DNA of 64,000 nt from Eledone cirrhosa (GCA_964016885.1 OZ024740.1:43524001-43588000), one strand, 5' to 3'; shown: positions 21,191 through 64,000, numbered from the stretch's first letter. The notes: a model not told the origin generated them from the sequence alone. Numbers and translations: made by a program.

Positions 21191-21235
21191 TGTATATATA
21201 TAACATGGTCAACAGTACAAATAGGGGGTTTATTT

Positions 21236-21351
21236 ACAGTATTAACAATTGTTTCACTGATTAAGTTGTCTAAATATTGCTGAACACTTGAAGCTGTGCC
21301 ACTCAATTTTAAATACAATATTAGCTTAACCAGATCATCAGAAAGGACTGT
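21236..21351 (-). ncRNA. Type I hammerhead-like motif with a long stem II insertion in the inverted pLTR
   Basis: acagtccttt-CTGATGA-tctggttaag..~70 nt..cttaatcagt-GAAAC-aatt-GTT-aatactgt. Confidence 0.6.
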
Positions 21352-22293
21352 TAACAATATGCAAGCGTTTACGAATTCAAATTACAACATTAATAAAGAG
21401 AGAGAAAAAAAATAAAGAGGGAGAAAAAAAAGAAAAAGAAAAAAAAAGATATAGAGAATAAAGACAGAGAGAAAAAAGAAAGAAGAGAAAAGTATGAAGA
21501 AAAAAGATAAAATATAAAGAAAAAGAACAACAGAGAAAAAATAATAAAGATAATAATAATAAATGAATAAATGTAAATAAATAAGTTATAACGTGGATGA
21601 TAAAAAATAATACAAAATATGATAAAAAATAAATAAAAAATGTTTATATGTGTGCGAAGAAAAGTAAACATAGTATGATTGTTTAGAGCAGTTGCGGTGT
21701 TGGTGGTTAAAATATAGAGATATGATAGTATAAACATTAAAATCTTAAATATATTCATGTATGTATTAGTTACATTGATAAATTAATTAAATAATTAATT
21801 AATTAATTAATTGTAAGTTATATTAGAAGTGAAAATATTACGATAAGATATAATGTAAGACATGAAATAAATTTAGGGAAAGAAATAGAAAGATAGAAAA
21901 TGAAAGATAGAAAATATAAAAAGTTATTATGTTGGTTCATTGACAGTTGATGACAATATTAATAAACTTATGAACACAATGACGCTCGCCAATAAAATCT
22001 GGCAGCTCAAAGATACAAACCAGGAATACAGAATTAGCTGGGTGAAGTTGTCAACGGCAATGGCCTATAGAATTGGCATGTCCCATTGTAGACTTTGCAA
22101 TATGGAATTATCCCATATTTTAAAATATAATTAAATGCTGCTTAACAGCAAAATAGAACGAACAATTTTCTGTAGACATAAAACGGCGAGCCAATTCGAT
22201 AATTTTAGACCAACTTAATTCATCCCATCTATTCCGTAATTCAAATTGTACCACCTGAATCTATTATAATAACCTATTGTCATTATTATTATT

Positions 22294-22470
22294 GTGGATT
22301 GGCAGTATCGGTAGCGAGTCGGACGCCATGCTTTGCAGCAAAGACTTACGGCCGTTTATGGTCTGAGTTCAAATCCCGCCGAGGTTAACTTTGCGGGGTC
22401 GATGAAATAGAGTACCAGTAATGCACTGAGATAATTCCTGGTCTTGTGCCAAAAGTAGAAACAATTATTA
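22294..22470 (+). mobile_element. SINE copy inside the Penelope remnant
   Basis: Head, B-box and tail motifs present, with a small internal deletion. Confidence 0.85.
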
Positions 22471-23411
22471 TTATTATTGTCATCAACTGTCAATGAACCA
22501 ACATCATAACCTTTTATATTTTCTATCTTTCTATTTCTTTCCCTAAATTTATTTCATCTCTTACATTATATCTTATCGTAATATTTTCACTTCTAATATA
22601 ACTTACAATTAATTAATTAATTAATTATTTAATTAATTTATCAATGTAACTAATACATACATGAATATATTTAAGATTTTAATGTTTATACTATCATATC
22701 TCTATATTTTAACCACCAACACCGCAACTGCTCTAAACAATCATACTATGTTTACTTTTCTTCGCACACATATAAACATTTTTTATTTATTTTTTATCAT
22801 ATTTTGTATTATTTTTATCATCCACGTTATAACTTATTTATTAACATTTATTGATTTATTATTATTATCTTGATTATTTTTTTTCTCTGTTGTTCTTTTT
22901 CTTTATATTTTATTTTTTTTCTTCACCCTTTTCTCTTCTTTATTTTTTCTCTCTATCTTTTTCTCTATATCTTTTTTCTCTATATATTTTTCTTTTTTTT
23001 TTTCTCTTTATCTCTCTCTCTTTCTTTTATTTTCTCTTTCTTTCTTTATTAATGATGTTGTAATTTGAATTCGTAAACGCTGTGCATATTTTTAACAGTC
23101 CTTTCTGATGATCTGGTTAAGCTAACATTGTATTTAAAATTGAGTGGCACAGCTTCAAGTGTTCAGCAATTTTTAGACAACTTAATACGGTAAATAAAAC
23201 CCCTTTTTTGTACTGTTGACCATGTTATTCTTCACTCTTTCAATATTATTACTCCAAGATAAACTTACATAGGAATTCAAGAGAACTCACAAACTCGCCA
23301 CCTACAGAAACCTCTTGTTGAGTCAAACAACGCCGTACGCTAAAGCTATCTACAATACGGAGTATTCACAACCTCTAACTGGATTACCTATAACGATATC
23401 GCTTGTTATCG

Positions 23412-23521
<110 letters not shown>

Positions 23522-24868: not shown

Positions 24869-25831
24869 CTCTTTTTATAGTAAGAAATTGTTCTCGCTCC
24901 ACATAATGACGTAAATATAGTTTAAACATTATTATTTTTAGTTTTATTTTCAATAAAAATAACTTTATTAATATTTAAAAACGGAAAGGTAGGGAAAGGC
25001 AAGCGCTCCAGTATCACAGAAGATGGAAGGAGAAAGGGGAAAAGTGATAGGCTCTGGGCCTAGAGTGCCGCAGTGTTGGGGCAGCGCCCAGCGGACAAGA
25101 CCGCTAAATCATTTCCACGGACAATGGCTAGATAGACCCGCTGTAACAGGAACTCCAACTCGCGAGGCTCCTTCCTCAGACGGATGCCGACGTTCTGATC
25201 TTGCAGAAGAGGTCGGGAATACGGGGTCTGAGGTCTCAGTGGCGATCGGTGCGAACAATCATCGGTATTAGTCTTCCTTTCCTCTGCATTGCGGGCCGCT
25301 GTGCCGGGATTTGTGTCCTAAGTAACTAATTTGGAGGCGGCGGAGAACGTATCGTAACATGTAATTATCGTTGCATATTTTTCGCCCATCGCCAGAGAAT
25401 GTCTTCGCGAACCACCGTTATGTCTTCCTGTTTTCTTTTAGTTGAAACGATTTTTGAAATAATTACTTCTGTGTCTACAGATTGTTTTTTGTCAGTTTTA
25501 GAAGATCCCGTAATAGAGTGAAAACAGAAATTATTTGCTTGAATTTTAATCTGTACTATTAATAAATATTTACACTACGGGTTTATATATACTTATATAT
25601 ATATATATATATATATTTCGTTTCTGAATTTGTTTAGCAAGATTCGTTATCTGAAATCGTGTGTTGAAACCGATATTGTTATACTTTGGGAGGGTCATGT
25701 TGCCAATAAGAAACACACGCACCAGTTGCTTTCACTTCAATTTAATTTATTAAATATTTATAAATTTACAAATTTATAAATTTCTGGTTGGTTGGTTGGT
25801 TCCACAACCAGATAGTTGTTTATATATATAT

Positions 25832-25876
25832 AGTCATAGTTCTTTCGTCACACACTATGTGACCTCTTCAGTGACT
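25832..25876 (-). ncRNA. Minimal type I hammerhead ribozyme in the Penelope 3' pLTR
   Basis: agtca-CTGAAGA-g-gtcaca-tagtg-tgtgac-GAAA-gaac-TA-tgact. Stems I and II pair perfectly. Confidence 0.8.
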
Positions 25877-26182
25877 GGGATTTCTTTCTTCGTTTCTGTG
25901 CCTTTCCTTTCTTCTATCCTACGCCATTTTGTTTGTGTGTGGGTTGCGTGCTCAGTTTGCGCATGCGCCACATCCGGGTGTCTGTGTGTGTTTGTGTTCA
26001 TTTTTCTATTTTTCTATTTATATTTTTCTATTTGTTTGTTTATTTATTTATTTATTGTTGGTTGGTTGTTTGTTCTATGTGTGTGTGTGTGTTTTCATTT
26101 TGTCTTGTGTGTGTTTTCATTTTGTGTGTGTTTTCAATTGTAAGTTGTTTGTTCTATGTGTGTGTGTGTTTTCATTTTGTCC

Positions 26183-28897
26183 TTAATTGTAAGTTGTGAT
26201 GTTGCTGTTCCACTCATATTTTCTATTTAATTTTGGTTTTAATTCTTTTATGCTTACTGCCTCTGTAATTTGCCTAAACATTGCGTCTTTCTTGTGTGTG
26301 GATTCTATTTTTATTTCTATGCTCTCTAATTTACCCCTGTGTTCTATCTTAGCATGTTGGTAGAGCACAGATGATTCTTTACTATCTTGGAGGTCTCGCC
26401 AGTGTTCATTTATTCGTTCCCCTATACTACGAGCTGTCTCACCTATGTACACTATATTTTTGTTTCTACATTGTCCTTCAGTACATCTTATGCTATATAC
26501 TACATTTCTAGTTTTACAGTTAATATGGGGGCTTATTTTACAGGTTATACATTTCTTATCTATACATGAGGGTCTTTGGAACGGGTATGTCTTGCTAATA
26601 AGTGTTTTTACGGAGGTACCAGGTCTTTCTACTATCTTAATATTGAGATTATGTTTCTTTAGGGCCCTTCTAAATTTGTAGGCTAGTTCGCCTCTAGGGG
26701 TTGTATTGATGAACATTACACTCTGGTATTTATTGCTATCATACCATGAGTTTATTCTATTGGCCTTGTTCTTAGTTCTTTCTATTCTATTCCAAAATTT
26801 GCTCCTATACAAGGGGCAGGTCCCATTTATGTCATTATTTACCATTTTTTCCCATTTGGTTCTGGCTCCTTTATACACTCTGATTCTATCTCTCTGATTG
26901 TAGCCAGAGAACTGCATACGGTGGATGAAGTGTTGTATGTGTCTCTCTAGTTCTTCGGGGTTGCACATGCGGGACACATTTTTCATCACCCGTACCAAAT
27001 CCGCAATCAGTATGTTGATTTTGGTATGGTCCGAAATGGCCGAGTTTCGGTGGATCAGATGTTTGGAAGTCATGGGTTTGGCATAATGGGAATGGAGGAT
27101 TTGTTTTTGGTTGTTAATAGTATCTAACCAGAGCTCTGTGTCTAGTACAGGTAATCGATGGTTGGGGTGTCTACTTGGGTAGTCTATAGTAACTCTAATG
27201 CTCTGGTGGATGGAGTTTGCTATTTGCTGGATGCTTTCCATTGTGTTTTTCTCTAGTTCCTGACTGTTCTTTAGTGGGGGTGTCTTAACTACGATGTTTA
27301 TATCATCTACGTAGCGGGAGTACATTATCAGGGTTAAGCTGTCTTCTAATTGTTCATTAAGTTTTTGTTTAAGTCTACTGTCCCACCATACCATGAATAA
27401 GTTAGCTATGTCGCCTGCAATGCTAACACCAATGGCTGCTCCTTCCTCTTGGGCATATGTTTTACCATTAAATTTGAACATATGTTCCTTAAGGGTTAAT
27501 TTTATGCTGGCCCCTACCGCATGTGCAATCATTTTCTTCAGTTCATCGTGGTTTTCGGGTGTCCGTATGGCTCTGGTCCACCCGTTCCATCTATCTGTGT
27601 GGGTTTTCTTGGCCATTGAGGTAATGGTAGGTGGTCTGCCTCTTGCTGGTCTTGTAGGGCACAGGTTGCTAAGGTCATAAGTGTCTAGGTAACTATTACT
27701 ATGGGTAAGCTTAAGTAGAAGTCCCAGCTCACTGGTATCAATCCCACGGAACTCAACCTTGCTCTCGCCGATCATTTCGACGCATTTCTCCACAGCAAAA
27801 TCCACGTCAATAGATGGATACAGGGACACAACATCCATACTGCCTATTATGCAGTTTGTTAGGTCCCCAGATCGGTTACCCGCGCCGATTCTGCCGAGGA
27901 GGTCCTCCGTGCTGTCACACACATCTGGGGACATCTCGATGATGGGGCGTATGATCAGGGAGAGGAAGTAGGACAGTCTGTAGTTACTAGCAATGTTAGC
28001 CCCACAGACTGGCCGTGTTGGTGGTCCCGCGACAGGGTCCCAGCCCGTTTTATGGTCTTTTCGAAGCCCATACAACGCCGGCACGTCATTGTTCCAGGCC
28101 TGGAAGTTGTTGGCAGTCCTTTTGTTGGGCTGCATTATATTTGTCCACATCACCATATGGGCATTGAGGGTTTTTTCTCTATCCTCATGCTCCTGTGGTG
28201 TTACCTCTCTTGTGTTAGTGATGTGGGGTTGCATTGCCTGGATGTAGTTTGGCAGGCTGTCAACCGACATTCTGCCAGACTTGTCTGTTGGAAAGCATGC
28301 TATCTCTCCATTACACGAGCGCTGCATGAGCTTACGCAAGCCATTTGCAGATTCTTCTCCCAGTTGCTGGGCCTCTATTCTATTATGCTTCTTGCTATAC
28401 TGTTCTATAATATTTCTAAGTTCGGATTTAGCTATACTAAATTGTGCTTCTGTTTGTTCATCGACCTGCGACGGCAACTGCGTGCGTTTGTTAAATGGCA
28501 AAGTCGTGGCGTGGACTCGTCGCAGGTCGAATGATTTATCGGAGGGGTTATAAAACGGAGAGTTCCAGGCTGCTGCTTTATGTGTACTAGTGCTATTGTT
28601 ATTGTTAGTTGTGTTGTTTCTATTTCCACCAACAGCAGCAGCCTCAGCTTCATGGTTGTTTCTATGTCTCTCATAATTACTCCTGTCTCTTTCCACTGGC
28701 TCAATGTTGTTATCTACCCTATTTTGTGTGTCTGTGTGTTCGTCTTGGTTATTCTCTTTGTCCTTAGTCTCCCATCTCCTTTTCCTTTTCCTTTTAATCC
28801 TATTACTTTCTCTTATTTCTCTGATTTCTGTGCTACTGTCATTACTTGTTTTCTGTGTCTGTGTGTTTGTTAAGATTGTGGTGGTGGTGAGAGGCAT
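26183..28897 (-). CDS. Penelope-like reverse transcriptase plus GIY-YIG endonuclease (904 aa open)
   Basis: PTDKSG, LYGLRKDHK, PTRPV, SMDVVSLYPSI, QEEGAAIG, RYVDDI, LPVLD, then NVVYSIRC...YIGETARSIGERINEH...EAVSI...LN. Confidence 0.93.
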   Translation of the reverse strand: MPLTTTTILTNTQTQKTSNDSSTEIREIRESNRIKRKRKRRWETKDKENNQDEHTDTQNRVDNNIEPVERDRSNYERHRNNHEAEAAAVGGNRNNTTNNNNSTSTHKAAAWNSPFYNPSDKSFDLRRVHATTLPFNKRTQLPSQVDEQTEAQFSIAKSELRNIIEQYSKKHNRIEAQQLGEESANGLRKLMQRSCNGEIACFPTDKSGRMSVDSLPNYIQAMQPHITNTREVTPQEHEDREKTLNAHMVMWTNIMQPNKRTANNFQAWNNDVPALYGLRKDHKTGWDPVAGPPTRPVCGANIASNYRLSYFLSLIIRPIIEMSPDVCDSTEDLLGRIGAGNRSGDLTNCIIGSMDVVSLYPSIDVDFAVEKCVEMIGESKVEFRGIDTSELGLLLKLTHSNSYLDTYDLSNLCPTRPARGRPPTITSMAKKTHTDRWNGWTRAIRTPENHDELKKMIAHAVGASIKLTLKEHMFKFNGKTYAQEEGAAIGVSIAGDIANLFMVWWDSRLKQKLNEQLEDSLTLIMYSRYVDDINIVVKTPPLKNSQELEKNTMESIQQIANSIHQSIRVTIDYPSRHPNHRLPVLDTELWLDTINNQKQILHSHYAKPMTSKHLIHRNSAISDHTKINILIADLVRVMKNVSRMCNPEELERHIQHFIHRMQFSGYNQRDRIRVYKGARTKWEKMVNNDINGTCPLYRSKFWNRIERTKNKANRINSWYDSNKYQSVMFINTTPRGELAYKFRRALKKHNLNIKIVERPGTSVKTLISKTYPFQRPSCIDKKCITCKISPHINCKTRNVVYSIRCTEGQCRNKNIVYIGETARSIGERINEHWRDLQDSKESSVLYQHAKIEHRGKLESIEIKIESTHKKDAMFRQITEAVSIKELKPKLNRKYEWNSNITTYN

Positions 28898-30032
28898 TGA
28901 AGGCGTGTGTGTTGTTGTTGTTGATGTGTGTTGTTGTTGATGTGTGTTGTTGTTGTCTCCGTGTGTGTGTGTTATCGTTGTTGTGTGTGTTGTTATTGTT
29001 GTTTGTGTTTGCGTGTCTGTTGTTGTTGTATCTGGGTATGTTGCTATTGTTGTTGTTGTTGATGTGTGTGTTGTTGTTATTATTGTCTCCGTGTGTGTTG
29101 TTATTGTTGTTTGTGTCTGCGTGTCTGTTGTATCTGGGTATGTTGCTATTGTTGTTGTTGTATCTGGGTATGTTGCTATTGTTGTTGTTATTGTTGTTTG
29201 TGTCTGTGTGTCTGTTGTTGTTGGGATGTGTGTTGTATATGTGTGTGCGTATATTGTTGCTTTTGTTTTTGTTTTTGATGCTCCAGCGTAGTTTCGTAAA
29301 TGATTTTTCTATTTCTGACAGACAACTAATCATATTTACCTTCTGGAATGTCGCAAATTTGGGTGGCAGACGTAACACAGACATTTCATTATTATCTATT
29401 TCCGTGTTTCCATAAATGTTGGTATTTTCATTGTTGAACTCTTCAGATAATGAGGTGTCGGCCATGTTGATACCGTCAATTTTGTCGGGATATCTATTGG
29501 TATACTCTATAGTATCCCGATTTAGCTTTGCCTGTTTAAGCCACTTTAATTTTCTGTTAAAGTGCTTATTACATTCTTGAGTAATGTACTGTTCTTCGGG
29601 GCGTATAAGGCTTATAAATGTTAGTTTTTCTGCTGGTGTGGTGATTTTAGATATTTCATCTATTAGGTTACGCTTTAGTTTTTCTTGATGACTTAATTCT
29701 CTATAGATCTTCTTTTTTATGTTTAGAATTAAAGTTCGTTTTAGCCTATCTGCTTGTTTTTTGGTGAGTTGTAATCTTCTAACGTCGGTATTGATGGTGT
29801 TGGTGTAGATTCTAGAAGTGGTGCACAGTTTTATGAAGTGTAGTTGTCGAGATGTTATGGTTTTTCGTAGACAACAGAACATGGTGGTTTTCAGTATCTT
29901 GTTAGCCTGGCTAAGGTTTACGATATTTCGTTTCTGAATTTGTTTAGCAAGATTCTTTATCTGAAATCGTGTGTTGAAACCGATATTGTTATACTTTGGG
30001 AGGGTCATGTTGCCAATAAGAAACACACGCAC
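28842..30032 (-). CDS. Penelope N-terminal portion (396 aa), probably the same ORF split by a frameshift within an N/T/H-rich repeat
   Basis: PLE-type N-terminus (LHFIKLC, E.SVLRLPPKFA, EIEKSFTKLRW). It overlaps the downstream ORF inside a (AAC/AC)-rich tandem tract. Confidence 0.75.
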   Translation of the reverse strand: MRVFLIGNMTLPKYNNIGFNTRFQIKNLAKQIQKRNIVNLSQANKILKTTMFCCLRKTITSRQLHFIKLCTTSRIYTNTINTDVRRLQLTKKQADRLKRTLILNIKKKIYRELSHQEKLKRNLIDEISKITTPAEKLTFISLIRPEEQYITQECNKHFNRKLKWLKQAKLNRDTIEYTNRYPDKIDGINMADTSLSEEFNNENTNIYGNTEIDNNEMSVLRLPPKFATFQKVNMISCLSEIEKSFTKLRWSIKNKNKSNNIRTHIYNTHPNNNRHTDTNNNNNNNSNIPRYNNNNSNIPRYNRHADTNNNNNTHGDNNNNNTHINNNNNSNIPRYNNNRHANTNNNNNTHNNDNTHTRRQQQHTSTTTHINNNNTHAFNASHHHHNLNKHTDTENK

Positions 30033-30239
30033 CAGTTGCTTTCACTTCAATTAATAACAAATTATTGTGTGACGAAAGAACTATGACTATATATATATAA
30101 ACAACTATCTGGTTGTGGAACCAACCAACCAACCAGAAATTTATAAATTTGTAAATTTATAAATATTTAATAAATTAAATTGAAGTGAAAGCAACTGGTG
30201 CGTGTGTTTCTTATTGGCAACATGACCCTCCCAAAGTAT

Positions 30240-30611
<372 letters not shown>

Positions 30612-30833
30612 GGGATAACAAATTATTGTTATAGGTAGTCCACTTAGATGTAGTCCAGTTAGGGTACTCCGAGTAATGGATAGTATTAACGCTTGGCTAA
30701 CTTTGACTCAACAAGACGTTTCCATAGTGATGCTGCGAGTACGCGGTGATCTCTATGTAGTTTACACTTGGAGTAATAATAAATCAAGAAAGAAGGGTGA
30801 CATGGTATTCTATACAATAAGGGCTTTATTCAT

Positions 30834-30945
30834 ATTGCTGATAATTGTTTCTCTGAACTGGTAGGTCTAGAGATCGCTACCCGCCTGTTTTTGCGTCAAT
30901 CGATCACCAATACATTGTTATAACCAGTTAATTCATCAGAGCATG
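30834..30945 (-). ncRNA. Second copy of the same hammerhead (CTGATGA core, AUC triplet)
   Basis: Reverse complement of 33307-33419 with substitutions. Confidence 0.65.
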
Positions 30946-31332
30946 CGAGAATGAAGGAAATACACAGGCATGGCTTCTATATATAGTAGTTACATTAAAT
31001 CAGAACAATAATAACAATACTCAAATAAATTAGCTAGACTGTAAATAGTTAAAATAATCACAACATCAATCTAAGTAAGACATAGAGTATACTGATGACA
31101 TTAGCGTGTAAAACGAGCTGATACGAAGCAGATGTATGAAATTGACATGTAAAAGCTGTCATTGGGTATATTATATATAGTGTAGAGATAACCTGGGGCT
31201 TGAAACAATGGACCATCTACTTTACTGTAGGTTTGCTGACCGTAAGATTTATTTATTATCTGACAGATAAAATATTTTCATTGTAGTGAGGATGGTAATT
31301 TTTATGTGGTGTAAAGCGGATTCATTATTTAA

Positions 31333-31520
31333 GGGCGGTTGATTGGCAGTATCGGTGGAGGGTCGGACGCCATGCTTTCCAGCATAGTTACGTCCCTTTA
31401 CGATCTGAGTTCAAATCCCGCCGAGGTTGACTTTGCCTTTCATCCTTACGTGGTCGATAAAATAAAGTACCAGTAATGCACTGGGTAATTGCTGGCCTTG
31501 TGCCTAAAGTAGAAACAATT
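31333..31520 (+). mobile_element. SINE inserted into one pLTR arm, with a ~10-bp target-site duplication (attatttaag)
   Basis: The duplicated motif flanks the SINE. The other arm (near 32925) shows the empty site attatgtaag. Confidence 0.9.
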
Positions 31521-31989
31521 ATTTAAGTGGTCTATATTAGATGAAGGGATTGTTAGTTCGAATCATGGGGTTGTTTAGCTTTCACGGAGTCAATAACAAA
31601 TCAGGCATGGATAAGACAACAATAACAGCGATATAGGTGGTAAGTTAATACAGAGGTTAAGGAAGCAAGGTGTATATAGAGAGAACATGATGAATACTAT
31701 TACGGATACATTGGGGTGTTCATTATAACAACAGGAGGAAGGTGATATCTCAAGGTCTGTGGTAGTAGTCAAATATTGTGCTTAGAATTAAGTTCATCTT
31801 TTGAAAATCAAGAGTGAGGTGGTTGTGTTGACAGCAGCCGAGAAGAGATATATTTATGGGTTGATAAGATATTTGCAGAGATTACTGTGGTATAGAATTA
31901 AGGAGGCTAGAAGCTGCTTAAAGAATATTATAGTTCTGTGGTGGTCTGTGTGAGAGTGCGGATTTCATATGTTGAATGCTAAGTTATGT

Positions 31990-32700
31990 TGGTTCGAATC
32001 ACGGTAGCTTAAATCTTGTGAATTTAGTAGCGATCCTGTGTCTGCAGAAAATTCACCTTTCCATCTTGTTGTTGAGTAGCCTTTTATCGTTTCTAAGGAT
32101 ATACAGTAATTCAAGATCGTAGAGCCTACAATAGGACATACCGGTACTATATGCCCTTGCGGCCGATAACCTCGACAAGTTGATATTGTAGTCGATATTT
32201 TTGTCCTTTAGTTTCCAGATTTTTTTGGCGAGGGTTGTAGAACCTATTAGTGCACGGTTCTTCATCGAATGTCTGTGCACATACCATCTTTTTTTAAACG
32301 TACCCGCGGTGGATCCAATGTAATGCCAAGTGGAATTGCCCGAGTTCACCGTACACATGTACACTAGGCTCGAATCAAGGCACCTGTTCGCCAATGGACA
32401 CCTATCTGGTAGGTGACAATTGCAGTTTGAGGTGTTATTCCGTGCAGCTTCCACACTGCTGTTTCATACACTGCTATAAGTGGGTTGTGATTCATGCCCG
32501 TTGAGGTTTTGATGCGGCGCGCTCGTATGCGTTTGCGGTTGTGATACTGTGATGTGTTTATGTTTAGAATTTGGTGCTATTTTGCGCATTGGTGGGGTGG
32601 TTTCCCTAGAGGTATTTCTGTGGTTGATCTTGCGTATGTGGGATTCTATATTTGCAGCCGTAGAGTATGAGAATTTTATAGTTTTATAGTTTTTCTATTG
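31990..32700 (-). pseudogene. Penelope GIY-YIG endonuclease C-terminal fragment
   Basis: IKFSYS...CNC...CPLANRCL..SLVYMC...YIGSTAGTFKKRWYVH...TTLAKKIWKLKD...CRL..LEL...LLNNK (ORF 32053-32454). Confidence 0.85.
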
Positions 32701-33306
32701 AGGATTTTATGATATCTATGTTGTTATAATGAACACCCCCATGTATCCGTAATAGTATTCATCCTGTTCTCTCTATATATACCTTGCTTCCTTAACCTCT
32801 GTATTAACTTACCGCCTATATTGCTGTTATTGTTGTCTTATCCATGCATGATTTGTTATTGATGCTGTGAAAGCTAAACAACCCATGATTCGAACTAACA
32901 ATACCTTCATCTAATATAGACCACTTACATAATGAATCCGCTTTACACCACATAAAAATTACCATCCTCACTACAATGAAAATATTTTCTGTCAGATAAT
33001 AAATAAATCTTTCGGTCAGCAAACCTATAGTAAAGTAAATGGTCCATTGTTTCAAGCCCCAGGTTATCTCTACACTATATATAATATACCCAATGACAGC
33101 TTTTACATGTCAATTTCATACATCTGCTTCGTATCAGCTCGTTTTACACGCTAAAGCCATCAGTATACTCTATGTCTTACTTAGATTGATGTGATTATTT
33201 TAACTATTTACAGTCTAGCTAATTTATTTGAGTATTGTTATTATTGTTATGATTTAATGCCACTACTATATATAGAAGCCATGCCTGTGTATCTCCTTCA
33301 TTCTCG

Positions 33307-33419
33307 CATGCTCTGACGAATTGACTGGTTATAACAAAGTATTGCTGTTCGATTGACGCAAAAACAGGCGGGTAGCGAACTCTAGACCTACCAGTTCAGA
33401 GAAACAATTGTCAGCAATG
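33307..33419 (+). ncRNA. Type I hammerhead ribozyme with a long stem II insertion
   Basis: catgct-CTGACGA-..actggt..accagt..-GAAAC-aatt-GTC-agcaatg, with a canonical core and GUC triplet. Confidence 0.75.
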
Positions 33420-36400
33420 TGAATAAAGCCCTTATTGTATAGCAAACCATGTCACTCTTCTTTCTTGATTTATATATATAACTCAGTAATACTGTGAAAA
33501 TGTTACTAATGTCGATGATTACAATGATGATAATCATAGTGATGGTGATGATTATAATAATGGTGATGATGATGATGATGATTTTTAGTTTTACCAGAAG
33601 AGCATTATTTTTTTGTAAATGGATGAGCAAAGTGTATCGAAGCCAGTACTTGACTGGTAATCATTTTATTGACTTCGGAGGAAGAAGCACGATGAATAAT
33701 AATGATAATTTAGTATAATTTGTAACTTGAATACACCACCGAAATATTGTATGAATGTGCTGTAAATAATTAAAGGATATTTTATAAAATGAAGCTGACG
33801 TCCTATGACTCCGGAGAGAGACAAATCTAAACGTGTGTAGCAAATGTTTATAATTATAATTAGTATTTTTATGCAGTATATATTTTGGCAGACACACCAG
33901 TCGGTGGATGCAGAAGTTCGTTGGATAATAATTACAAGGAATCTGGCCTTTACTGCGGAAATGACGCACTTGTAAGCGATTCCTATTTTTAATTTTTATA
34001 TATTTTTCTGTAAGTTAAGTTTCTTGTTTTTGAGCGATTGATTTTATTTTTATTTCTAATTTTATTTGGTATTTATTTCTGCCTTCATGGCAGGCATTCT
34101 TTTCAATATCAGTGAACAAGAGGAGCGGATTCCAAAAAAAAAGTGAAAAGAAAAAACTACAAATATGTTGCGTATTGGAAACTTTGCTCAAATGGCAGTA
34201 ATAACTCCAACACTGAAAAAAATTCAACATGTTAAAATATAAAACATTAGTCGTAATACGGATATACATGAAAATATGAAAACACGTTAGGTTATCCTAT
34301 AACTCTCTTCTGACTACTTGTCTGTCAACAATACAATATATTCACACATCAATGAATGAGAGAAACAAAAATAATAAAAAAAAAAAACAAATGACCATTT
34401 CACAACTAGAAAGAAATGTAATTTGCTGATTTCAACACTTGCACGCTCAACAACAAGAATATTCAGTGTAATAATCGTTCCTGCTTCTAAACCATGCTGT
34501 CTACAAGGCAACATGGAAATATGTAACCCAAATTACACAACTGGAAATTCAATTTTAGAGAGTGCAGTGACAACCTCCGGCATACCTAACGAACAGCATA
34601 TGTAAGAGAATAGAACTATGTCTCTCAAAGCTAAATAACAACCAAAGACAAGTTGTTAAATATAAAGAAACTGTCTAACAGTAGAACTAATAAACTACTA
34701 TATATAGAATTACTAGAATTAACAACTCTAACAATGACTACAGTAAATTACATGTTACAAGCACTAAATATAACACCTTATACAACAACATCAACTGAAC
34801 TCACTCATCAAGCATAATTTCCAAATCAATCAATAATAGCTACACAGTCTAGTCATTTATTTCTATTGTTTTACTAGTTTCACTCATTGAACGGTGTCGA
34901 TGCCAGGGTACCATCTTGCAATATAAATAAATATCTTAATAAAACATTCAACCTATCCTTAAGCTACGTAATTAGATACTAGATACTTGAATAATATAAT
35001 AGGCACTAATTTAGAAATAAGGACAACAATTTAGGGGATAGAGAAAAGTCGATTATATCAACCCTAGTACTTGCTTGATGCTTTATTTTCTCGATAGCTC
35101 CAACAGACGCAAAACACAGTGAGGGGAAAAGAGTGGAATGAAGGAGAAAACGGCGAAAGAGGGGGTAGGGGTGATAAAGTGAGGTAAAGAGGATGACAGC
35201 GGGGTTACGAAGAATAAAATAGTAAAAAATACCAAAAATTTCGAAATAAATGTGAGATGGGAAAGGCGGGTCGGGAATAATTTAATAAAGAGATATAAGG
35301 AGGAGAAAAGAGTGGTTAAGCAGAATAAGAGGGCACGCAAGACCGAGAGAAGTCAAATAGTAATCTCGTCTTCAGTTAGTATCTTTGCAATCTAGACTAA
35401 TTTAAAGCGGGTTCCCTAAGCTCAGTCCGCCGTGATTCCATTTGTAGAAACTAGATCGCCTTTATGTACCATAACATCTTACTGGTGGTCAGAGAGAAAT
35501 AGGCATCTACGATAACCATCTGGGACCCCACGCTCTATCCCTCATTGTAACTCTCTCACATTACACCTCTACCTGTTGGATTTGCGGAAGTTATATACGT
35601 ATAGAGGCGGTTCGCTGGTAATGGAAGTCAAGAGGGGTATGTGTGTATTCCACAAGGATATCACAGGTATGGTATGGCACATCTTGGAATTGAAGATGGT
35701 CGTATCAGCAATGTGGGAACACGAGGTGGTACATAGATCAGGCGTTAATATAAATTGGTTGGCAAGGACTTCAGCAAATAGCCAGGCATGTCTACGTCTT
35801 TCAGGTTTGTTTAAGGTTCCTAAAATACAAAGATGTCTGCAGACATAATAGAATACGAAATATTCTGATCACCTAAAGCTCTATCAATTATAATCCCCAT
35901 AGTACCATTATTCATAATAGAATTATCTGCTGTGCCAGTACTTTTTAAAACTGATTGGAGTGATGTGAGGTAAACAGCAATATTAAGGTAACGAAAAAAA
36001 GCATTTCATGTATAGAATTGTTGTTAGTTTATGAGTGCATCATGTAATCCATGCATTCCTTGAAAAATTACTCCAGACACCCATATATTCTACTGTATCT
36101 CAGAACACACTTGGCGCTATATCATGCCAACTCTGTCTACACTAATAAAACGTCATACACAAAACCAGCACCTGTATCATTACGCCGTCCACTCATTAAC
36201 CTTAATAACAATGTTATGATATACACACCTGAGGGGAACAGCAACTGTTATTTTCCGAATCGGTCTACATCTCTCAATGTACGTTGTTCACTATCCGCTG
36301 TTGCTATATACAGTACTTAACTGGACAGTGAAGAAAATATGACTTTCCCCAGGCTGCTTCTGTACTCTATTTTATGTGATTAACAGAAGATGAACTATAG

Positions 36401-37171: not shown

Positions 37172-37174
<3 letters not shown>

Positions 37175-38579: not shown

Positions 38580-38582
<3 letters not shown>

Positions 38583-46000: not shown

Positions 46001-46028
46001 ATATTATATTATTATTATTATTATTATT

Positions 46029-50925: not shown

Positions 50926-50937
50926 TTCTTATTATTA

Positions 50938-51793: not shown

Positions 51794-51905
51794 ACATTAT
51801 TATTATTATTATTATTATTATTGTTGTTATTCCTTGAATCTCAGTCATTGATGTTGGTTAACTGGAAAGTCCGTTGGAATGAATATCAAGCCACTACCTG
51901 CAGCC

Positions 51906-55298: not shown

Positions 55299-55599
55299 TT
55301 CACCGTTATTCGAACTGTTTATGTTCGATATTTAAACACTCTTATCGAGGATTGGCGAATGTATGTTTACATAGCCATCTGTGGATCCGCCATCCCACTT
55401 GGCCCTTGTGTGGAATTATCACCACGCTGTATACGAACACACATAAACAAACAAACACACAGGCAGAAAGGGCCCCAGAAATGAATAAGCATAAGTTTCA
55501 TTGTAATGTAGTGTTCGAATGTCTGACTTAGTTTTAGTTTTTTAAGTTTTACTTTTTCCCCCCTCTTCTCTGCCCGTCCGCCTGCTTCTCTCTTCATTA

Positions 55600-56930: not shown

Positions 56931-57095
56931 TCCGAATTTTTTGGGGCTCAAGCCGGGTGCTTTACGTAGCATTTGTGCTAAGAGTTGTTATTTCACAAAT
57001 GGTTTAAATATGTTAAAAATTCAAAACTTACGGGAGCGATTTCATGACCTCCGTCACCTCGTGCGTCTTCTTCCCTTATTATTCTTATTATTCCC

Positions 57096-57153
<58 letters not shown>

Positions 57154-57176
57154 CATTATTATTATTATTATTATTA

Positions 57177-58455
57177 GAGTCCCAGTCAATGATGTTATTT
57201 AACTGGAAAGTGTATCCAAATGAACATCAAGCCATTACCTGCAGCCTCAGATATTCAGGAGATATCGGAGTGTTATTGCTGTTCCCAGCAAGCATGCCTT
57301 TTGAAGTGTTCTAAAAAAGGGAGCTGGACTAATGTTATTTAACTATCCTTGAAACTCTTCGAGATAGTACCTAGTGCTCCTATGAAAAGCGGGACGACCT
57401 TGATCTCTTAACAGTTGCAAATTCCCCCTTCAAATCAGTTAATTTTCTCCTTCTCCTTTTTTGTACTCTTGTGTGACAGGGGCAGGCTACATCTACAATC
57501 ATGCTCGCTCTTGTCGAAACCCACCAGGTCAGTCCTATTGTGTTCTAATTTCTTGTCTGTCTGTATCCGGAAATCCCATAGCACCTTCACTTGATCGTGT
57601 TCTATCACCGACTACGGTTTATGCTCATACCACTTCTCAGATGTGGTGAACTATTTAGTTTGCATAAATGCCAGTGAATCATCTTTCCCATTATATCGTG
57701 GCTCCAGCCTTTATATTGTGTCTAGGCTAGGTTTTTACACTTGAATACGGTATGAGCTACAGTCTCCTCTCTATATTTACAGATCCTCCAGAGTGAGCTA
57801 GCCCCCTCTTTGTCAATATGGTATTTCACACACGTCGTTCTGAGGGCTTGCTCTTGTGCAGCCATTAGCATTCCTTCTGTAGCAGTTTAAAGGCCTCCTC
57901 TTTTTAACCAGATCCATGTCTGTGGATCTCTGAATTTCGTTTTCTTAAAAAAGGTGTTATGAAGTGATCTTTCAGGAAGGTTGCTCTTCCTCTTTGTTGT
58001 TACTTCCTCCTTGGACATCCCCTGGTTTATTATCTTCTATTTCAGTACAACTTTGAGCATCGGCTCCCTATTCTCAGACATATTTGTGCAGACTATTTTC
58101 CTCCATCTGAAAACAGTCCTCTATGATGATAAGACAAATTCCACCTTCAGATCTCTTTAAGTAAAGTCTATCAACATCACTCCTCTTGTGGAACATGCTG
58201 TAGGCAGTCAGTAGCTTCGTAGTCTTTCTATACCTTTTTCTTTTTGTTTTGTTCAGTTACATTCCATTTGAGAATTCCCGCACTGTACCTAATAATAAAC
58301 ACAGTTAGGGAATTTACTGCACTTATGACATTCCTACAGTTTAGATGTGATTTTAGTATGTTCTTTACTCTCCTTATGTATCCAGATCGTATCAATTCCT
58401 TCATTTTATTCTTCTTGATATCATCTGCCTCCGGAACACCCAAATATCTATTTTC
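57177..58455 (-). mobile_element. Older 5'-truncated Dong copy D
   Basis: Degenerate homologue of the 3' 1.3 kb of copies A and C. The 3' end abuts (TTA)n at 57095-57176. Confidence 0.85.
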
Positions 58456-58615
58456 TTGAAAAATATTTTTGTAAAGCAAATCATGTGGTCGGAAATCAGC
58501 ATGCAGGATTTTTAATGAAGAAACATTTTAACTTAATAGTAAATGTTTCGATGATCCAAATGGGAGAAAGCAGGCTTTGCTAACAACAATTTTTTTATAC
58601 ATTTTATAAAGATCC

Positions 58616-59085: not shown

Positions 59086-59150
<65 letters not shown>

Positions 59151-59226
59151 TAATTTTCAGAAGATTGAAAGCAGCGATTCTTTTCTTAAGCTTTAATCTG
59201 TTATTTTAATAAATATTAGCTCTACG

Positions 59227-59259
<33 letters not shown>

Positions 59260-59264
<5 letters not shown>

Positions 59265-61391
59265 TATAGACATAGAATATTCGAAAATATTCTGTATGTT
59301 TATAATAAACATTTTGAAGACCTAATCGCTATAGAATAGAATACGTCACGTATTACAATTAGATTCTCGATAAAAGCAAGGAGAGTAATCTACGCGTTTC
59401 ATTCTTGTTAGAAATCATCAGGACTACATATCCAGTGCTTTTATCGAGAATGACACAGCTAGAGACTTATAGAATACTTAGCTGTGTACAGGAACTGGTT
59501 TGAAAGAGCGGTTGCCGGTCCGGCAGAAATTAGAAATTGGAATAAATGCTCTGAAATAGCGATATATATGTGAATATAGACATAGAATATTCGAAAATAT
59601 TCTGTATGTTTATAATAAACATTTTGAAGACCTAATCGCTATAGAATAGAATACGTCACGTATTACAATTAGATTCTCGATAAAAGCAAGGGAAGTAATC
59701 TACGCGTTTCATTCTTGTTAGAAATCATCAGGACTACATATCCAGTGCTTTTATCGAGAATGACACAGCTAGAGACTTATAGAATACTTAGCTGTGTACA
59801 GGAACTGGTTTGAAAGAGCGGTTGCCGGTCCGGCAGAAATTAGAAATTGGAATAAATGCTCTGAAATAGCAATATATATGTGAATATAGACATAGAATAT
59901 TCGAAAATATTCTGTATGTTTATAATAAACATTTTGAAGACCTAATCGCTATAGAATAGAATACGTCACGTATTACAATTAGATTCTCGATAAAAGCAAG
60001 GGAAGTAATCTACGCGTTTCATTCTTGTTAGAAATCATCAGGACTACATATCCAGTGCTTTTATCGAGAATGACACAGCTAGAGACTTATAGAATACTTA
60101 GCTGTGTACAGGAACTGGTTTGAAAGAGCGGTTGCCGGTCCGGCAGAAATTAGAAATTGGAATAAATGCTCTGAAATAGCGATATATATGTGAATATAGA
60201 CATAGAATATTCGAAAATATTCTGTATGTTTATAATAAACATTTTGAAGACCTAATCGCTATAGAATAGAATACGTCACGTATTACAATTAGATTCTCGA
60301 TAAAAGCAAGGGAAGTAATCTACGCGTTTCATTCTTGTTAGAAATCATCAGGACTACATATCCAGTGCTTTTATCGAGAATGACACAGCTAGAGACTTAT
60401 AGAATACTTAGCTGTGTACAGGAACTGGTTTGAAAGAGCGGTTGCCGGTCCGGCAGAAATTAGAAATTGGAATAAATGCTCTGAAATAGCGATATATATG
60501 TGAATATAGACATAGAATATTCGAAAATATTCTGTATGTTTATAATAAACATTTTGAAGACCTAATCGCTATAGAATAGAATACGTCACGTATTACAATT
60601 AGATTCTCGATAAAAGCAAGGGAAGTAATCTACGCGTTTCATTCTTGTTAGAAATCATCAGGACTACATATCCAGTGCTTTTATCGAGAATGACACAGCT
60701 AGAGACTTATAGAATACTTAGCTGTGTACAGGAACTGGTTTGAAAGAGCGGTTGCCGGTCCGGCAGAAATTAGAAATTGGAATAAATGCTCTGAAATAGC
60801 GATATATATGTGAATATAGACATAGAATATTCGAAAATATTCTGTATGTTTATAATAAACATTTTGAAGACCTAATCGCTATAGAATAGAATACGTCACG
60901 TATTACAATTAGATTCTCGATAAAAGCAAGGGAAGTAATCTACGCGTTTCATTCTTGTTAGAAATCATCAGGACTACATATCCAGTGCTTTTATCGAGAA
61001 TGACACAGCTAGAGACTTATAGAATACTTAGCTGTGTACAGGAACTGGTTTGAAAGAGCGGTTGCCGGTCCGGCAGAAATTAGAAATTGGAATAAATGCT
61101 CTGAAATAGCGATATATATGTGAATATAGACATAGAATATTCGAAAATATTCTGTATGTTTATAATAAACATTTTGAAGACCTAATCGCTATAGAATAGA
61201 ATACGTCACGTATTACAATTAGATTCTCGATAAAAGCAAGGGAAGTAATCTACGCGTTTCATTCTTGTTAGAAATCATCAGGACTACATATCCAGTGCTT
61301 TTATCGAGAATGACACAGCTAGAGACTTATAGAATACTTAGCTGTGTACAGGAACTGGTTTGAAAGAGCGGTTGCCGGTCCGGCAGAAATT
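59260..61391 (-). mobile_element. Tandem array of about 6.9 near-identical 310-bp monomers, each with a hammerhead (candidate non-LTR retrozyme)
   Basis: Units start at 59261, 59571, 59881, 60191, 60501, 60811 and 61121. There is no ORF, and (TA)n lies at the left end. Confidence 0.9.
59385..59427 (-). ncRNA. Minimal type I hammerhead ribozyme (also at 59695, 60005, 60315, 60625, 60935, 61245, 63065, 63373 and 63681)
   Basis: gtagtc-CTGATGA-tttct-aaca-agaat-GAAAC-gc-GTA^gattac. Stem I is gtagtc/gattac and stem III is the palindrome ACGCGT. Confidence 0.88.
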
Positions 61392-61403
61392 ATATATATT
61401 CAC

Positions 61404-61759
61404 ATATATTCACATATATATCGCTATTTCAGAGCATTTATTCCAATTTCTAATTTCTGCCGGACCGGCAACCGCTCTTTCAAACCAGTTCCTGTACACA
61501 GCTAAGTATTCTATAAGTCTCTAGCTGTGTCATTCTCGATAAAAGCACTGGATATGTAGTCCTGATGATTTCTAACAAGAATGAAACGCGTAGATTACTT
61601 CCCTTGCTTTTATCGAGAATCTAATTGTAATACGTGACGTATTCTATTCTATAGCGATTAGGTCTTCAAAATGTTTATTATAAACATACAGAATATTTTC
61701 GAATATTCTATGTCTATATTCACATATATATCGCTATTTCAGAGCATTTATTCCAATTT
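61404..61759 (+). mobile_element. Inverted ~1.1 monomer at the 5' (sense) end of array 1, with an HHR at 61556-61598
   Basis: Reverse complement of the 310-bp type unit, ending in (TA)n. Confidence 0.9.
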
Positions 61760-61779
61760 ATATATATATATATTATTAT

Positions 61780-61838
<59 letters not shown>

Positions 61839-61878
61839 AGTTTTGCAATATTACACAAATATGACCCTCCCCAAGTAT

Positions 61879-61914
<36 letters not shown>

Positions 61915-61917: not shown

Positions 61918-62666
61918 CGTTTGGTTTCGCTTTTTCTACCAGCCAAAATAAGATTCTCGCTGAATTTATATTTATTTATTTAAATATATCATACACCTAC
62001 GGTAGTAGGTGTAAAATATTCTTAAGGTCCCATTTCGGTCACTCGCGACACCTTCAAATCTTTGTCACTAATTCAATTTTTGATAGAATTGGATGCGGCT
62101 TTTTGCACTTTATAGGACCACAGATAAGCTACTTTTTTACATAAAAATATTGAAATTTTGTTCAGTAGAAAAAAAGTTACATGAAAATAAGTAACGCTTA
62201 GTTTGTTTCTAATTTCTAATACATTAAAATAGTGATAGATTGTGCAATAGTGTATTGTGGTCAGGTAGCTCAGTCGGTAGAGCAGCGGACCGGCAATCCG
62301 AAGGTCGTGGGTTTGATTCCCACCCTGATTACTTTTCCTATCTGCACTTCTTCCTATTCATTATTATTTATTTAACTTATTTGTTGATAGATATTTTTAA
62401 TATTAATCCTAAACCGACGGTAGTCGGTTTAGTAATATTGTTGTCTTAGTGATTTCGTTGGCAATCGTCTCTTTACAGCATTATTAGAATGTCTTCCGAT
62501 TATCAAAATCACAAGAAAGTTATATGAGCATGGAGAGTAAATCATTGCACATCTCTTAAGCTAAAAATCTCGAAATTTCGTTCAGCACAAAAAAAGTTAT
62601 GATCAAAGTTTGCTGAAAAAAACTGTGTTCAAGTGAGTAAGTGAGTGAGTAAGGGTGACGCTCTGT
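61915..62666. mobile_element. Probable non-autonomous DNA element (Helentron-associated or DINE-1-like) between (TA)n tracts
   Basis: Stem-loops acacctac-ggta-gtaggtgt (about 61993-62012) and taaaccgac-ggta-gtcggttta (62411-62432), and a (GAGT)-type microsatellite near the end. Its first ~65 bp match 9213-9270 in reverse. Confidence 0.4.
62259..62331 (+). pseudogene. tRNA-like sequence (pseudo-tRNA or SINE head; nominal anticodon GGC)
   Basis: Cloverleaf GGTCAGG/CCTGATT, D arm GCTC-AGTCGGTA-GAGC, T arm GTGGG-TTTGATT-CCCAC, followed by TTTT. It has C at position 33 and a non-canonical T loop. Confidence 0.65.
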
Positions 62667-62682
62667 TATATATATTTATATT

Positions 62683-62715
<33 letters not shown>

Positions 62716-62784
62716 ATATTTATATATTTATATTTATATATATATATATTTATATTTATATATATATATATTTATCTATATATT

Positions 62785-62820
<36 letters not shown>

Positions 62821-62854
62821 TATATATATTTATATATATATTTATATATATATT

Positions 62855-62885
<31 letters not shown>

Positions 62886-62907
62886 TTATATATATATATA
62901 TATATAT

Positions 62908-63899
62908 ATTGGAATAAATGCTCTGAAATAGCGATATATATGTGAATATAGACATAGAATATTCGAAAATATTCTGTATGTTTATAATAAACATTTTGAA
63001 GACCTAATCGCTATAGAATAATACGTCACGTATTACAATTAGATTCTCGATAAAAGCAAGGGAAGTAATCTACGCGTTTCATTCTTGTTAGAAATCATCA
63101 GGACTACATATCCAGTGCTTTTATCGAGAATGACACAGCTAGAGACTTATAGAATACTTAGCTGTGTACAGGAACTGGTTTGAAAGAGCGGTTGCCGGTC
63201 CGGCAGAAATTAGAAATTGGAATAAATGCTCTGAAATAGCGATATATATGTGAATATAGACATAGAATATTCGAAAATATTCTGTATGTTTATAATAAAC
63301 ATTTTGAAGACCTAATCGCTATAGAATAATACGTCACGTATTACAATTAGATTCTCGATAAAAGCAAGGGAAGTAATCTACGCGTTTCATTCTTGTTAGA
63401 AATCATCAGGACTACATATCCAGTGCTTTTATCGAGAATGACACAGCTAGAGACTTATAGAATACTTAGCTGTGTACAGGAACTGGTTTGAAAGAGCGGT
63501 TGCCGGTCCGGCAGAAATTAGAAATTGGAATAAATGCTCTGAAATAGCGATATATATGTGAATATAGACATAGAATATTCGAAAATATTCTGTATGTTTA
63601 TAATAAACATTTTGAAGACCTAATCGCTATAGAATAATACGTCACGTATTACAATTAGATTCTCGATAAAAGCGAGGGAAGTAATCTACGCGTTTCATTC
63701 TTGTTAGAAATCATCAGGACTACATATCCAGTGCTTTTATCGAGAATGACACAGCTAGAGACTTATAGAATACTTAGCTGTGTACAGGAACTGGTTTGAA
63801 AGAGCGGTTGCCGGTCCGGCAGAAATTAGAAATTGGAATAAATGCTCTGAAATAGCGATATATATGTGAATATAGACATAGAATATTCGAAAATATTCT
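62908..63899 (-). mobile_element. Second retrozyme-like array, about 3.2 monomers of 308 bp
   Basis: Same unit with a shared 2-bp deletion (agaataatac versus agaatagaatac), preceded by (TA)-rich microsatellite. Confidence 0.9.
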
Positions 63900-64000
63900 A
63901 TGTCTATATTCTATGTCTATATTCACATATATATCGCTATTTCAGAGCATTTATTCCAATTTCTAATTTCTGCCGGACCGGCAACCGCTCTTTCAAACCA
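63900..64000 (+). mobile_element. Inverted (fold-back) arm of array 2, running off the window end
   Basis: Reverse complement of the immediately preceding sequence, with its apex in the native hairpin agaatatt-cgaa-aatattct. Confidence 0.9.

What the first reader, a model, noticed from the sequence alone, without database searches (positions are those of the whole stretch)
59230..61900. The retrozyme arrays show Penelope-type insertion architecture: (TA)n target plus 5' inversion
Seen: both arrays begin in (TA)n and carry an inverted segment at their sense-strand 5' end. The same arrangement occurs in the autonomous Penelope at 25617-30247 and in the truncated PLEs at 21.2-23.2 kb and 30.6-33.5 kb. 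Established: PLE insertions often have inverted 5' pLTR segments and carry HHRs. Inference: a Penelope RT/GIY-YIG mobilises this RNA by target-primed, rolling-circle reverse transcription, so the helper and parasite types occur in one window.
Basis: partly seen in the sequence, partly recalled or inferred. Interest (0 to 1): 0.78.

Follow-up and report, generated by a model that had tools for sequence, protein, structure and literature searches.

The report
Two-armed retrozyme insertions with Penelope footprint
A 310-base non-coding repeat carrying a predicted self-cutting RNA motif sits at well over a thousand places in this animal genome as two back-to-back arms that end at two fixed sites in (TA)n DNA, the same footprint that Penelope-like jumping genes leave here, so their enzyme likely copied it from both sides of a DNA break, probably round an RNA circle.

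Summary
Largely real, and sharper than described. The arrays are not a sense array with a short 5' inversion. Each has two multimeric arms joined 5' to 5', with both 3' ends in (TA)n; in array 2 the 'inverted segment' is the 19-unit main arm. One arm stops about 130-139 nt after the hammerhead cut site, the other about 165 nt. On the first 184 Mb of contig 1, 109 of 128 loci are two-armed, and 107 of 107 with both ends seen pair one short and one long end. That is the Penelope-like element (PLE) 'tail' rule; this genome's PLE families obey it too (24 of 26 pairs for the window's family). Both arms share one haplotype (29 of 30) and their junction offsets are random, which argues against fold-back. 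PLE-driven double target priming is well supported; a circular template is likely but not shown. The 'helper in this window' is not supported: that PLE is frame-broken, has about 13,000 tails genome-wide, no homology to the retrozyme and a 59-nt rather than 35-nt tail. The retrozyme-PLE link is in print (2020; 2026 preprint), and this scan already reported this family on other DNA.

The parts
59231..59261 (.). (TA)n target tract at the 3' end of the minus arm of array 1
59252..61392 (-). Array 1, untailed arm: 6.9 units of the 310-bp retrozyme; 3' end at unit position 130-139 counted from the predicted hammerhead cut
61393..61404 (.). 5'-to-5' junction of array 1, 12-nt insert (short local duplication)
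61405..61762 (+). Array 1, tailed arm: 1.2 units; 3' end at unit position 165-167, 35 nt beyond the untailed end
61547..61612 (+). Type I hammerhead motif (one per unit): U-U at the base of stem II, palindromic minimal stem III, predicted cut after 61592
   Evidence: cleavage not tested
61651..61739 (+). Predicted stem-loop domain just upstream of the two 3' end sites; inner hairpin keeps its pairing through two compensatory changes in a sister family; candidate RT-recognition element
   Evidence: role inferred
61759..61834 (.). (TA)n target tract at the 3' end of the plus arm of array 1
61858..61883 (+). Stub of the untailed 3' end of a relative of the 25.6-30.2 kb PLE, a separate insertion in the same TA-rich nest
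   Evidence: 96% to 30219-30270, TA run included
62667..62907 (.). Impure (TA)n tract at the left end of array 2
62908..63908 (-). Array 2, tailed arm: 3.2 units of the 308-bp haplotype
63906..64000 (+). Start of the untailed arm of array 2; continues for 19 units to G000:C1:43593786 and ends in (TA)n
25617..30060 (-). PLE family A, tailed arm: direct pLTR, RT plus C-terminal GIY-YIG ORF split over two frames, 3' pLTR with hammerhead motif (25823-25871)
30063..30247 (+). PLE family A, inverted untailed pLTR arm, about 57-59 nt shorter at its 3' end
21200..23413 (+). Truncated PLE (family B): inverted untailed arm 21200-21965, endonuclease C-terminal remnant 21967-22161, tailed end at 23413 (185 nt longer); SINE-like repeat inserted at 22281-22469
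30611..33473 (-). Truncated PLE (family C): tailed minus arm with GIY-YIG stretch 32056-32463, inverted untailed arm 32719-33473 (168 nt shorter), hammerhead-like motif with long stem II

Best explanation
This is a young non-coding retrozyme family whose insertions consist of two multimeric arms joined 5' to 5' inside (TA)n, one arm ending at a short and the other at a long fixed site 35 nt apart; a Penelope-like RT-endonuclease, likely acting as a pair, is inferred to nick both strands and prime two cDNAs on one RNA, probably a circle. Steps: (1) arrays would be transcribed, cut by the hammerheads and ligated to 310-nt circles (inferred from PMC7229834; no RNA data here); (2) the GIY-YIG domain nicks (TA)n on both strands (target shown; enzyme inferred from PMC11167929); (3) each nick primes at its own internal site, unit position ~130-139 or ~165, where the RNA reads AT-rich (ends shown; priming inferred); (4) both RTs run through successive hammerhead sites and stop independently (shown as arm lengths of 0.1-27 units and dispersed 5' ends); (5) the two cDNAs are joined by microhomology end joining (junctions shown). 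If only one cDNA survives, a single-armed copy results (17 of 128 loci). Which PLE family supplies the protein is not known.
For: Genome-wide: 4,177 exact hammerhead matches, 1,393 long-end and 1,441 short-end pattern matches. Census of contig 1 up to 184.4 Mb: 189 ends give 61 divergent pairs, 61 of 61 short+long, none short+short or long+long; all 67 unpaired ends were then read as sequence. Total 128 loci: 109 two-armed, 17 single-armed (13 short, 4 long), 2 cut by gaps; 107 of 107 two-armed loci with both ends seen are short+long. 153 of 165 3' ends abut TA runs; SINE-like control 5 of 72, with 3 of 72 head-to-head. Window PLE family A: 24 of 26 divergent pairs short+long; a young family C relative has a 176-nt offset in 4 loci. 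Both arms carry the same haplotype in 29 of 30 loci, chance about 0.10. Offsets between the two 5' ends are uniform (n=56, KS p=0.76); microhomology of 2 nt or more in 26 of 38 joins without insert or long overlap, against 18% expected; only 3 of 112 5' ends lie at the hammerhead cut. Unit junctions across the cut site are as clean as elsewhere. 25 haplotypes in 56 loci, each fixed along its array; 9 of 25 arrays of 8 or more units have no private variant, as expected if one monomer was copied repeatedly. Two older sister families keep the upstream module and equivalent end sites. In vitro, a PLE protein cuts and extends both strands of AT-rich DNA, starts RT at two internal sites that define the tail, and is predicted to dimerise (PMC11167929). 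2 of 22 sister-family loci are fused to PLE sequence without (TA)n between (L114 family A, L110 family D).
Against: No PLE pLTR homologous to the retrozyme was found in about 0.8-1.1 Mb of fetched DNA, unlike 24 of 57 Xenopus families (preprint 10.64898/2026.07.22.740005). No RZ-PLE fusion was seen at the 5' flanks of 17 single-armed loci of the 310-bp family, checked against the three window PLE families only. The two fusions involve different PLE families, one breaks the one-tail rule (L114 is long+long), and both could be deletions between neighbouring insertions. Some private variants recur within or across arms (array 2 with period 7 and one variant in both arms; L036; L073; L089), which fits a multimeric template or later conversion better than a monomer circle; L097 has arms that differ at one site. 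Family A itself has 2 of 26 read-through+read-through pairs. The inversion junctions were not checked against independent reads.
Confidence: 0.82

Rival explanations
1. Same PLE double priming, but the template is an uncut linear multimeric transcript of an existing array (or a multimer circle); hammerhead cleavage and monomer circles are side products.
For: Recurring non-fixed variants at the same unit position within and across arms (array 2, L036, L073, L089). Hammerhead mutants did not change insertion by PAc in vitro and unprocessed RNA was the dominant substrate (PMC11167929). Eight of nine Xenopus retrozyme dimers did not cleave in vitro (preprint). Palindromic stem III suggests weak monomer cleavage (PMC4209133).
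Against: Locus-specific haplotypes fixed along up to 26 units, 19 of 56 loci with a haplotype seen once, need a one-unit bottleneck; read-through of arrays would pass on ordered private variants.
Confidence: 0.3
2. The inverted arm arises by self-priming or fold-back of one cDNA (or on an antisense template), as proposed for PLE head-to-head repeats in PMC3846280.
For: Explains the shared haplotype of both arms; a few junctions have overlaps of 11-48 nt (5 of 56).
Against: Fold-back predicts near-zero offsets between the arms' 5' ends; they are uniform (9 of 56 within 20 nt, 7.4 expected). It does not by itself explain why the second arm stops at the other fixed site in 107 of 107 loci.
Confidence: 0.08
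3. LINE (RTE-type) machinery with twin priming inserted the RNA, or arrays grew in place as satellites by unequal crossing over.
For: RTE-like LINE ORFs are abundant in the window (family name recalled, not tested); in-place growth is proposed in the 2026 preprint.
Against: The window's LINE copies end in (ATT)n/(TTA)n and show no inverted arms (only 3 LINE 3' ends sampled); the SINE-like control lacks (TA)n and head-to-head partners. Twin priming (recalled model) gives one defined 3' end, not two. Satellite growth would not reset both outer ends to fixed sites at over a thousand loci.
Confidence: 0.04
4. The inversions are assembly artefacts (fold-back reads).
For: Junctions were not checked against raw reads; Craig et al. 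note that such structures trouble assemblies; one locus next to a gap is duplicated (L057).
Against: Flanks differ on the two sides, arms are asymmetric in a fixed biological register, older families with 85-95% arm identity show the same layout, and contigs of an independent run show the short end running into (TA)n (X2, place 61731).
Confidence: 0.02

Closest known systems
Metazoan non-LTR retrozymes (Cervera and de la Pena 2020, PMC7229834; passages read)
   Same: Tandem units of 170-400 bp with a type I hammerhead, low GC, thousands of copies, no ORF of note, co-existence with PLEs; U-U at the base of helix II as in axolotl HHR_Amex2; circle-templated tandem cDNA and PLE helpers proposed.
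   Different: In the passages found, no head-to-head arms, fixed 3' ends or microsatellite targets are reported ('orientation' and 'microsatellite' 0 hits); helper left open between LINEs and PLEs. Here circles and cleavage are untested. Supplementary Figure S9 (their model) was not seen.
[quoted passage not shown]
   Same: Concludes that retrozymes are non-autonomous PLE derivatives that use PLE enzymes.
   Different: Rests on co-occurrence and pLTR homology; no analysis of ends, tails, targets or inversions ('tail' and 'head-to' 0 hits). Here the evidence is insertion anatomy, and pLTR homology was not found.
EN+ Penelope-like elements: inverted pLTR and tail (PMC3846280, PMC8557442; passages read) and PAc in vitro (PMC11167929; parts 1-2 of 4 read)
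   Same: Head-to-head inverted 5'-truncated copy, 30-40 bp tail on one end, (TA)n bias in Neptune/Naiad, two internal RT start sites, both strands cut and extended.
   Different: The tail is described as optional or often on one end and the inversion as self-priming or EN-mediated resolution; here the one-tail pairing is 107 of 107, tail length is family-specific (35 to about 185 nt), and both arms are long multimers of a non-coding unit.
MRC1 and other non-autonomous Chlamys PLEs (PMC8557442, passage)
   Same: Non-autonomous elements with multicopy head-to-tail insertions moved by PLEs.
   Different: They share 3' sequence with their autonomous partners; no such partner was found here.

Membership tests
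Metazoan non-LTR retrozyme | Tandem units of about 170-400 bp, no LTR/PBS/PPT, non-coding | tested here: met
   310/308-bp units; no ORF of 150 aa or more in the arrays
Metazoan non-LTR retrozyme | Type I hammerhead motif in each unit | tested here: met
   Core and stems in every full unit; Rfam HH9 E=0.029, below gathering
Metazoan non-LTR retrozyme | Dispersed, multi-locus family | tested here: met
   4,177 exact motif matches; about 1,400 ends of each kind
Metazoan non-LTR retrozyme | Self-cleavage in vitro | not testable with these tools
   needs transcription assays of monomer and dimer
Metazoan non-LTR retrozyme | Expressed as linear and circular monomer RNA | not testable with these tools
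   no run on record as RNA was listed
PLE-type insertion (works like) | Head-to-head inverted 5'-truncated copy | tested here: met
   109 of 128 loci
PLE-type insertion (works like) | 30-40 bp tail on one end only | tested here: met
   35 nt, 107 of 107 loci
PLE-type insertion (works like) | (TA)n or AT-rich target | tested here: met
   153 of 165 3' ends
PLE-type insertion (works like) | Short TSD where the target allows it to be seen | tested here: inconclusive
   clear 14-bp TSD at L048; 16 of 49 loci gave a candidate repeat, mostly inside impure microsatellite
Derivative of a PLE pLTR (origin) | Sequence homology to the pLTR of an autonomous PLE | tested here: inconclusive
   none in the window or in about 0.8-1.1 Mb fetched; most PLE families of the 3-Gb genome were not sampled
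Autonomous EN+ PLE (element at 25617-30247) | RT plus C-terminal GIY-YIG, pLTRs with hammerhead | tested here: met
   weak Pfam RVT_1 (E=4e-4, under cut-off); Atlas clusters with RT/GIY-YIG/HTH_animal at 0.97; pLTRs and motif
Autonomous EN+ PLE (element at 25617-30247) | Single intact ORF | tested here: not met
   two overlapping frames in a low-complexity insert; may be real or an assembly error
Penelope/Poseidon clade in the strict sense | No CX2-5CxxC linker before GIY-YIG (linker marks Neptune/Nematis/Naiad, PMC8557442) | tested here: not met
   family A has CX4CX2C before the EN; no tree was built, so clade is provisional

The most novel reading that the evidence does not exclude
The arrays are genomic snapshots of the whole PLE integration reaction: a PLE protein dimer nicks both strands of (TA)n, its two RTs start 35 nt apart on one 310-nt RNA circle, roll round it up to 27 times, and the two cDNAs are end-joined. 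The obligatory one-tail pairing would then replace the self-priming explanation for head-to-head PLE repeats in general, tail length would be a family barcode that pairs helpers with parasites, and the conserved stem-loop upstream of the two ends would be the portable signal that makes any circular RNA a PLE substrate.
Probability: 0.45. Interest if true: 0.8.

Novelty: new variant of a known kind. Interest (0 to 1): 0.6.

Why it matters
How PLEs integrate, and which enzyme moves animal retrozymes, are both open: the 2020 paper names PLEs only as candidates, the 2026 preprint argues from co-occurrence and homology, and the single in vitro PLE study leaves the later steps unexplained. Here more than a thousand near-identical insertions record the reaction: two fixed start sites used once each, one template haplotype, independent stops and end joining. 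That links the in vitro both-strand, two-site result to genome anatomy and gives a small RNA with exact predicted product ends for a direct test. It is evidence for a proposed link, not a new system, and the helper is still unidentified.

Tried and rejected
DNA search of the genome with the unit returned nothing because common words are skipped; patterns were used instead. Helper hunt: BLAST and a profile from both sister families against the window and fetched loci gave only retrozyme hits; local alignment of the conserved module to the 3' regions of other EN-coding lineages gave no standout score; the third homologous family is tandem and non-coding, not a pLTR. Co-location with the 25.6-30.2 kb PLE as evidence: rejected, 12,947 tail-motif matches genome-wide. 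One search's pattern did not exclude read-through copies as intended, so its 27,179 is not a count of ends; its list was used to class pairs. Expression: no RNA holder listed. Three runs of other labelled organisms hold one closed 310-nt contig at depth 10-15; run type is unknown, so not used as evidence of circles. TSD scan: mostly uninformative inside (TA)n. Arm lengths correlate only weakly (rho 0.27, p=0.04, n=58) and neither arm type is longer. The 272-bp insert at the L036 junction matched nothing fetched and no Rfam family. Zero-length 'tails' are alignment run-on into (TA)n and were ignored. Rows dropped before the census: 3 long-end and 2 short-end hits that were array-internal variants, and 6 long-end rows beyond 184.4 Mb. 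Two ends were classed leniently: L057 (next to a gap) and L199 (unit position 159). Literature searches found no paper on retrozyme insertion ends or on an obligatory one-tail pairing; subscription papers such as Arkhipova 2006 and Pyatkov 2004 were not available.

Full report
What is there. Two arrays of a 310-bp (array 2: 308-bp) unit lie at 59252-61762 and from 62908 onward. Each full unit has a type I hammerhead core with a U-U pair at the base of stem II and a palindromic minimal stem III; Rfam gives only a sub-threshold HH9 match. A 358-nt stretch holding one unit folds better than all 100 shuffles (z = -4.3). With unit position 1 set at the predicted cut, array 1 is a 6.9-unit minus arm ending at position 130-139 and a 1.2-unit plus arm ending at 165-167. 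Array 2 is a 3.2-unit minus arm ending at 165 and a 19-unit plus arm, mostly outside the window, ending at 130-139. All four 3' ends run into (TA)n.

Genome census. The genome (3.0 Gb, 1,796 contigs) has 4,177 exact matches to the hammerhead, 1,393 matches to a long-end pattern and 1,441 to a short-end pattern that exclude only the array-internal continuation. For contig 1 up to 184.4 Mb I paired 91 long and 98 short ends by position: 61 divergent pairs, all short+long; 30 of these were also read as sequence. All 67 unpaired ends were fetched: 48 are two-armed (46 short+long, 2 with the far end unseen), 17 single-armed, 2 cut by gaps. So 109 of 128 loci are two-armed and 107 of 107 follow the one-tail rule. 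153 of 165 3' ends have a TA run of 8 nt or more, against 3.5% background and 5 of 72 for a SINE-like repeat in the same DNA, which has a head-to-head partner in 3 of 72. The census covers one contig only.

Is this the PLE footprint? Published PLE insertions often have an inverted 5'-truncated copy and a 30-40 bp tail on one end (PMC8557442, PMC3846280; passages). For the anole element PAc the tail is the stretch between two internal RT start sites; the protein cuts and extends both strands of AT-rich DNA and is predicted to dimerise (PMC11167929). The three window PLEs show the same layout, with tails of about 59, 185 and 168 nt. Family A follows the rule in 24 of 26 divergent pairs, a young family C relative in 4 loci with a 176-nt offset, and many further two-armed, one-tailed families with their own tail lengths appear in the fetched DNA. 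The retrozyme behaves as one of them.

How the two arms arise. Both arms carry the same haplotype in 29 of 30 loci with two or more full units per arm; random pairing would match about 10% of the time. The offsets between the two 5' ends are uniform round the unit (n=56, KS p=0.76), joins are rich in microhomology (26 of 38 with 2 nt or more, 18% expected), and 5' ends do not cluster at the hammerhead cut (3 of 112). This fits two independently stopped cDNAs from one RNA, joined end to end, and does not fit the self-priming model offered in PMC3846280. The pairing of the two enzymes as a dimer is inference.

Circle or multimer. For a circle: 25 haplotypes in 56 loci, each fixed along arrays of up to 26 units, 9 of 25 long arrays without any private variant, and clean unit junctions at the cut site. 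Against a simple monomer circle: private variants that recur at fixed spacing or in both arms at array 2, L036, L073 and L089, and PAc's preference for uncut RNA in vitro. No RNA data were available. I put about 60:40 on circles as the main template.

The helper. The window's PLE is not shown to be it. Its ORF is split over two frames, it has a Neptune/Nematis-type cysteine linker, 12,947 tail motifs genome-wide, no homology to the retrozyme and a 59-nt tail. At least eight other EN-coding lineages occur in the fetched loci; none shows homology. An older 322-bp sister family (3,072 motif matches) has a different hammerhead but about 75% identity over unit positions 59-212, compensatory changes in the upstream hairpins and the same two ends; a third, older family keeps the module as well. 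Two of 22 sister loci are fused to PLE sequence, one to family A and one to family D: suggestive of template switching, but deletions between neighbours in shared (TA)n tracts would look alike.

TSDs. They are masked by (TA)n; L048, in a non-(TA)n site, has a 14-bp duplication. TSDs therefore do not separate PLE from LINE routes.

Comparison and verdict. The element meets the sequence criteria of metazoan non-LTR retrozymes (PMC7229834); cleavage and circles are untested. That PLEs move retrozymes was proposed in 2020 and argued from homology in a 2026 preprint; neither text, as far as read and term-searched, analyses ends, tails or inversions, and seven searches found no such paper in the open library. 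Supplements of these papers were not seen and may bear on this. The same family and reading were reached by earlier follow-ups on other DNA of this genome, which are not independent support. Verdict: observation partly confirmed, PLE-driven double priming well supported, circle likely, helper unknown; a new variant of a known kind that makes an open mechanism testable.

Noticed in passing
window 9685-10892, 37174-37367, 38580-38896: Three more head-to-head insertions next to TA-rich tracts, each with one arm longer than the other (about 78 and 98 nt extra for the latter two) and hammerhead-like ends; further PLE-type non-coding families.
   Followed up: partly
window 59150-59230 and 25515-25593: Both array 1 and the 25.6-kb PLE sit in the (TA)n end of the same older repeat family (82% match): nested insertion into TA tracts left by earlier elements.
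   Followed up: partly
fetched loci: Dozens of two-armed, one-tailed families with family-specific tails of about 40-200 nt; several tails begin with a shared short GCTCTG-like word, hinting at a common helper.
   Followed up: no
L114 344-1843 (G000:C1 22.61 Mb) and L110 1198-1862 (G000:C1 16.99 Mb): Sister retrozyme fused directly to PLE family A and to PLE family D sequence without (TA)n at the join.
   Followed up: partly
L036 2599-2870 (G000:C1 45.28 Mb): 272-bp GC-rich insert of unknown origin at a retrozyme arm junction; no match in fetched DNA or Rfam; possible captured RNA.
   Followed up: partly
L031 2906-8786 (array 2 beyond the window): Two private variants repeat with a period of 7 units: multimeric template, local duplication or assembly effect.
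   Followed up: partly
runs X1, X3, X6: Three runs labelled as other organisms hold the unit as one closed 310-nt contig at depth 10-15; contamination, diet or true circles cannot be told apart.
   Followed up: no
window 28910-29277: Low-complexity Asn/Thr-rich insert in the PLE ORF where the frame changes, reminiscent of the N-rich inserts of rotifer Penelopes (PMC3846280).
   Followed up: no
window 62259-62331: tRNA-like sequence (Rfam RF00005, 64 bits) between the two arrays; gene or SINE head not resolved.
   Followed up: no
window 41654-58457: Cluster of LINE copies with (ATT)n ends and no inversions; served as a small contrast set.
   Followed up: partly
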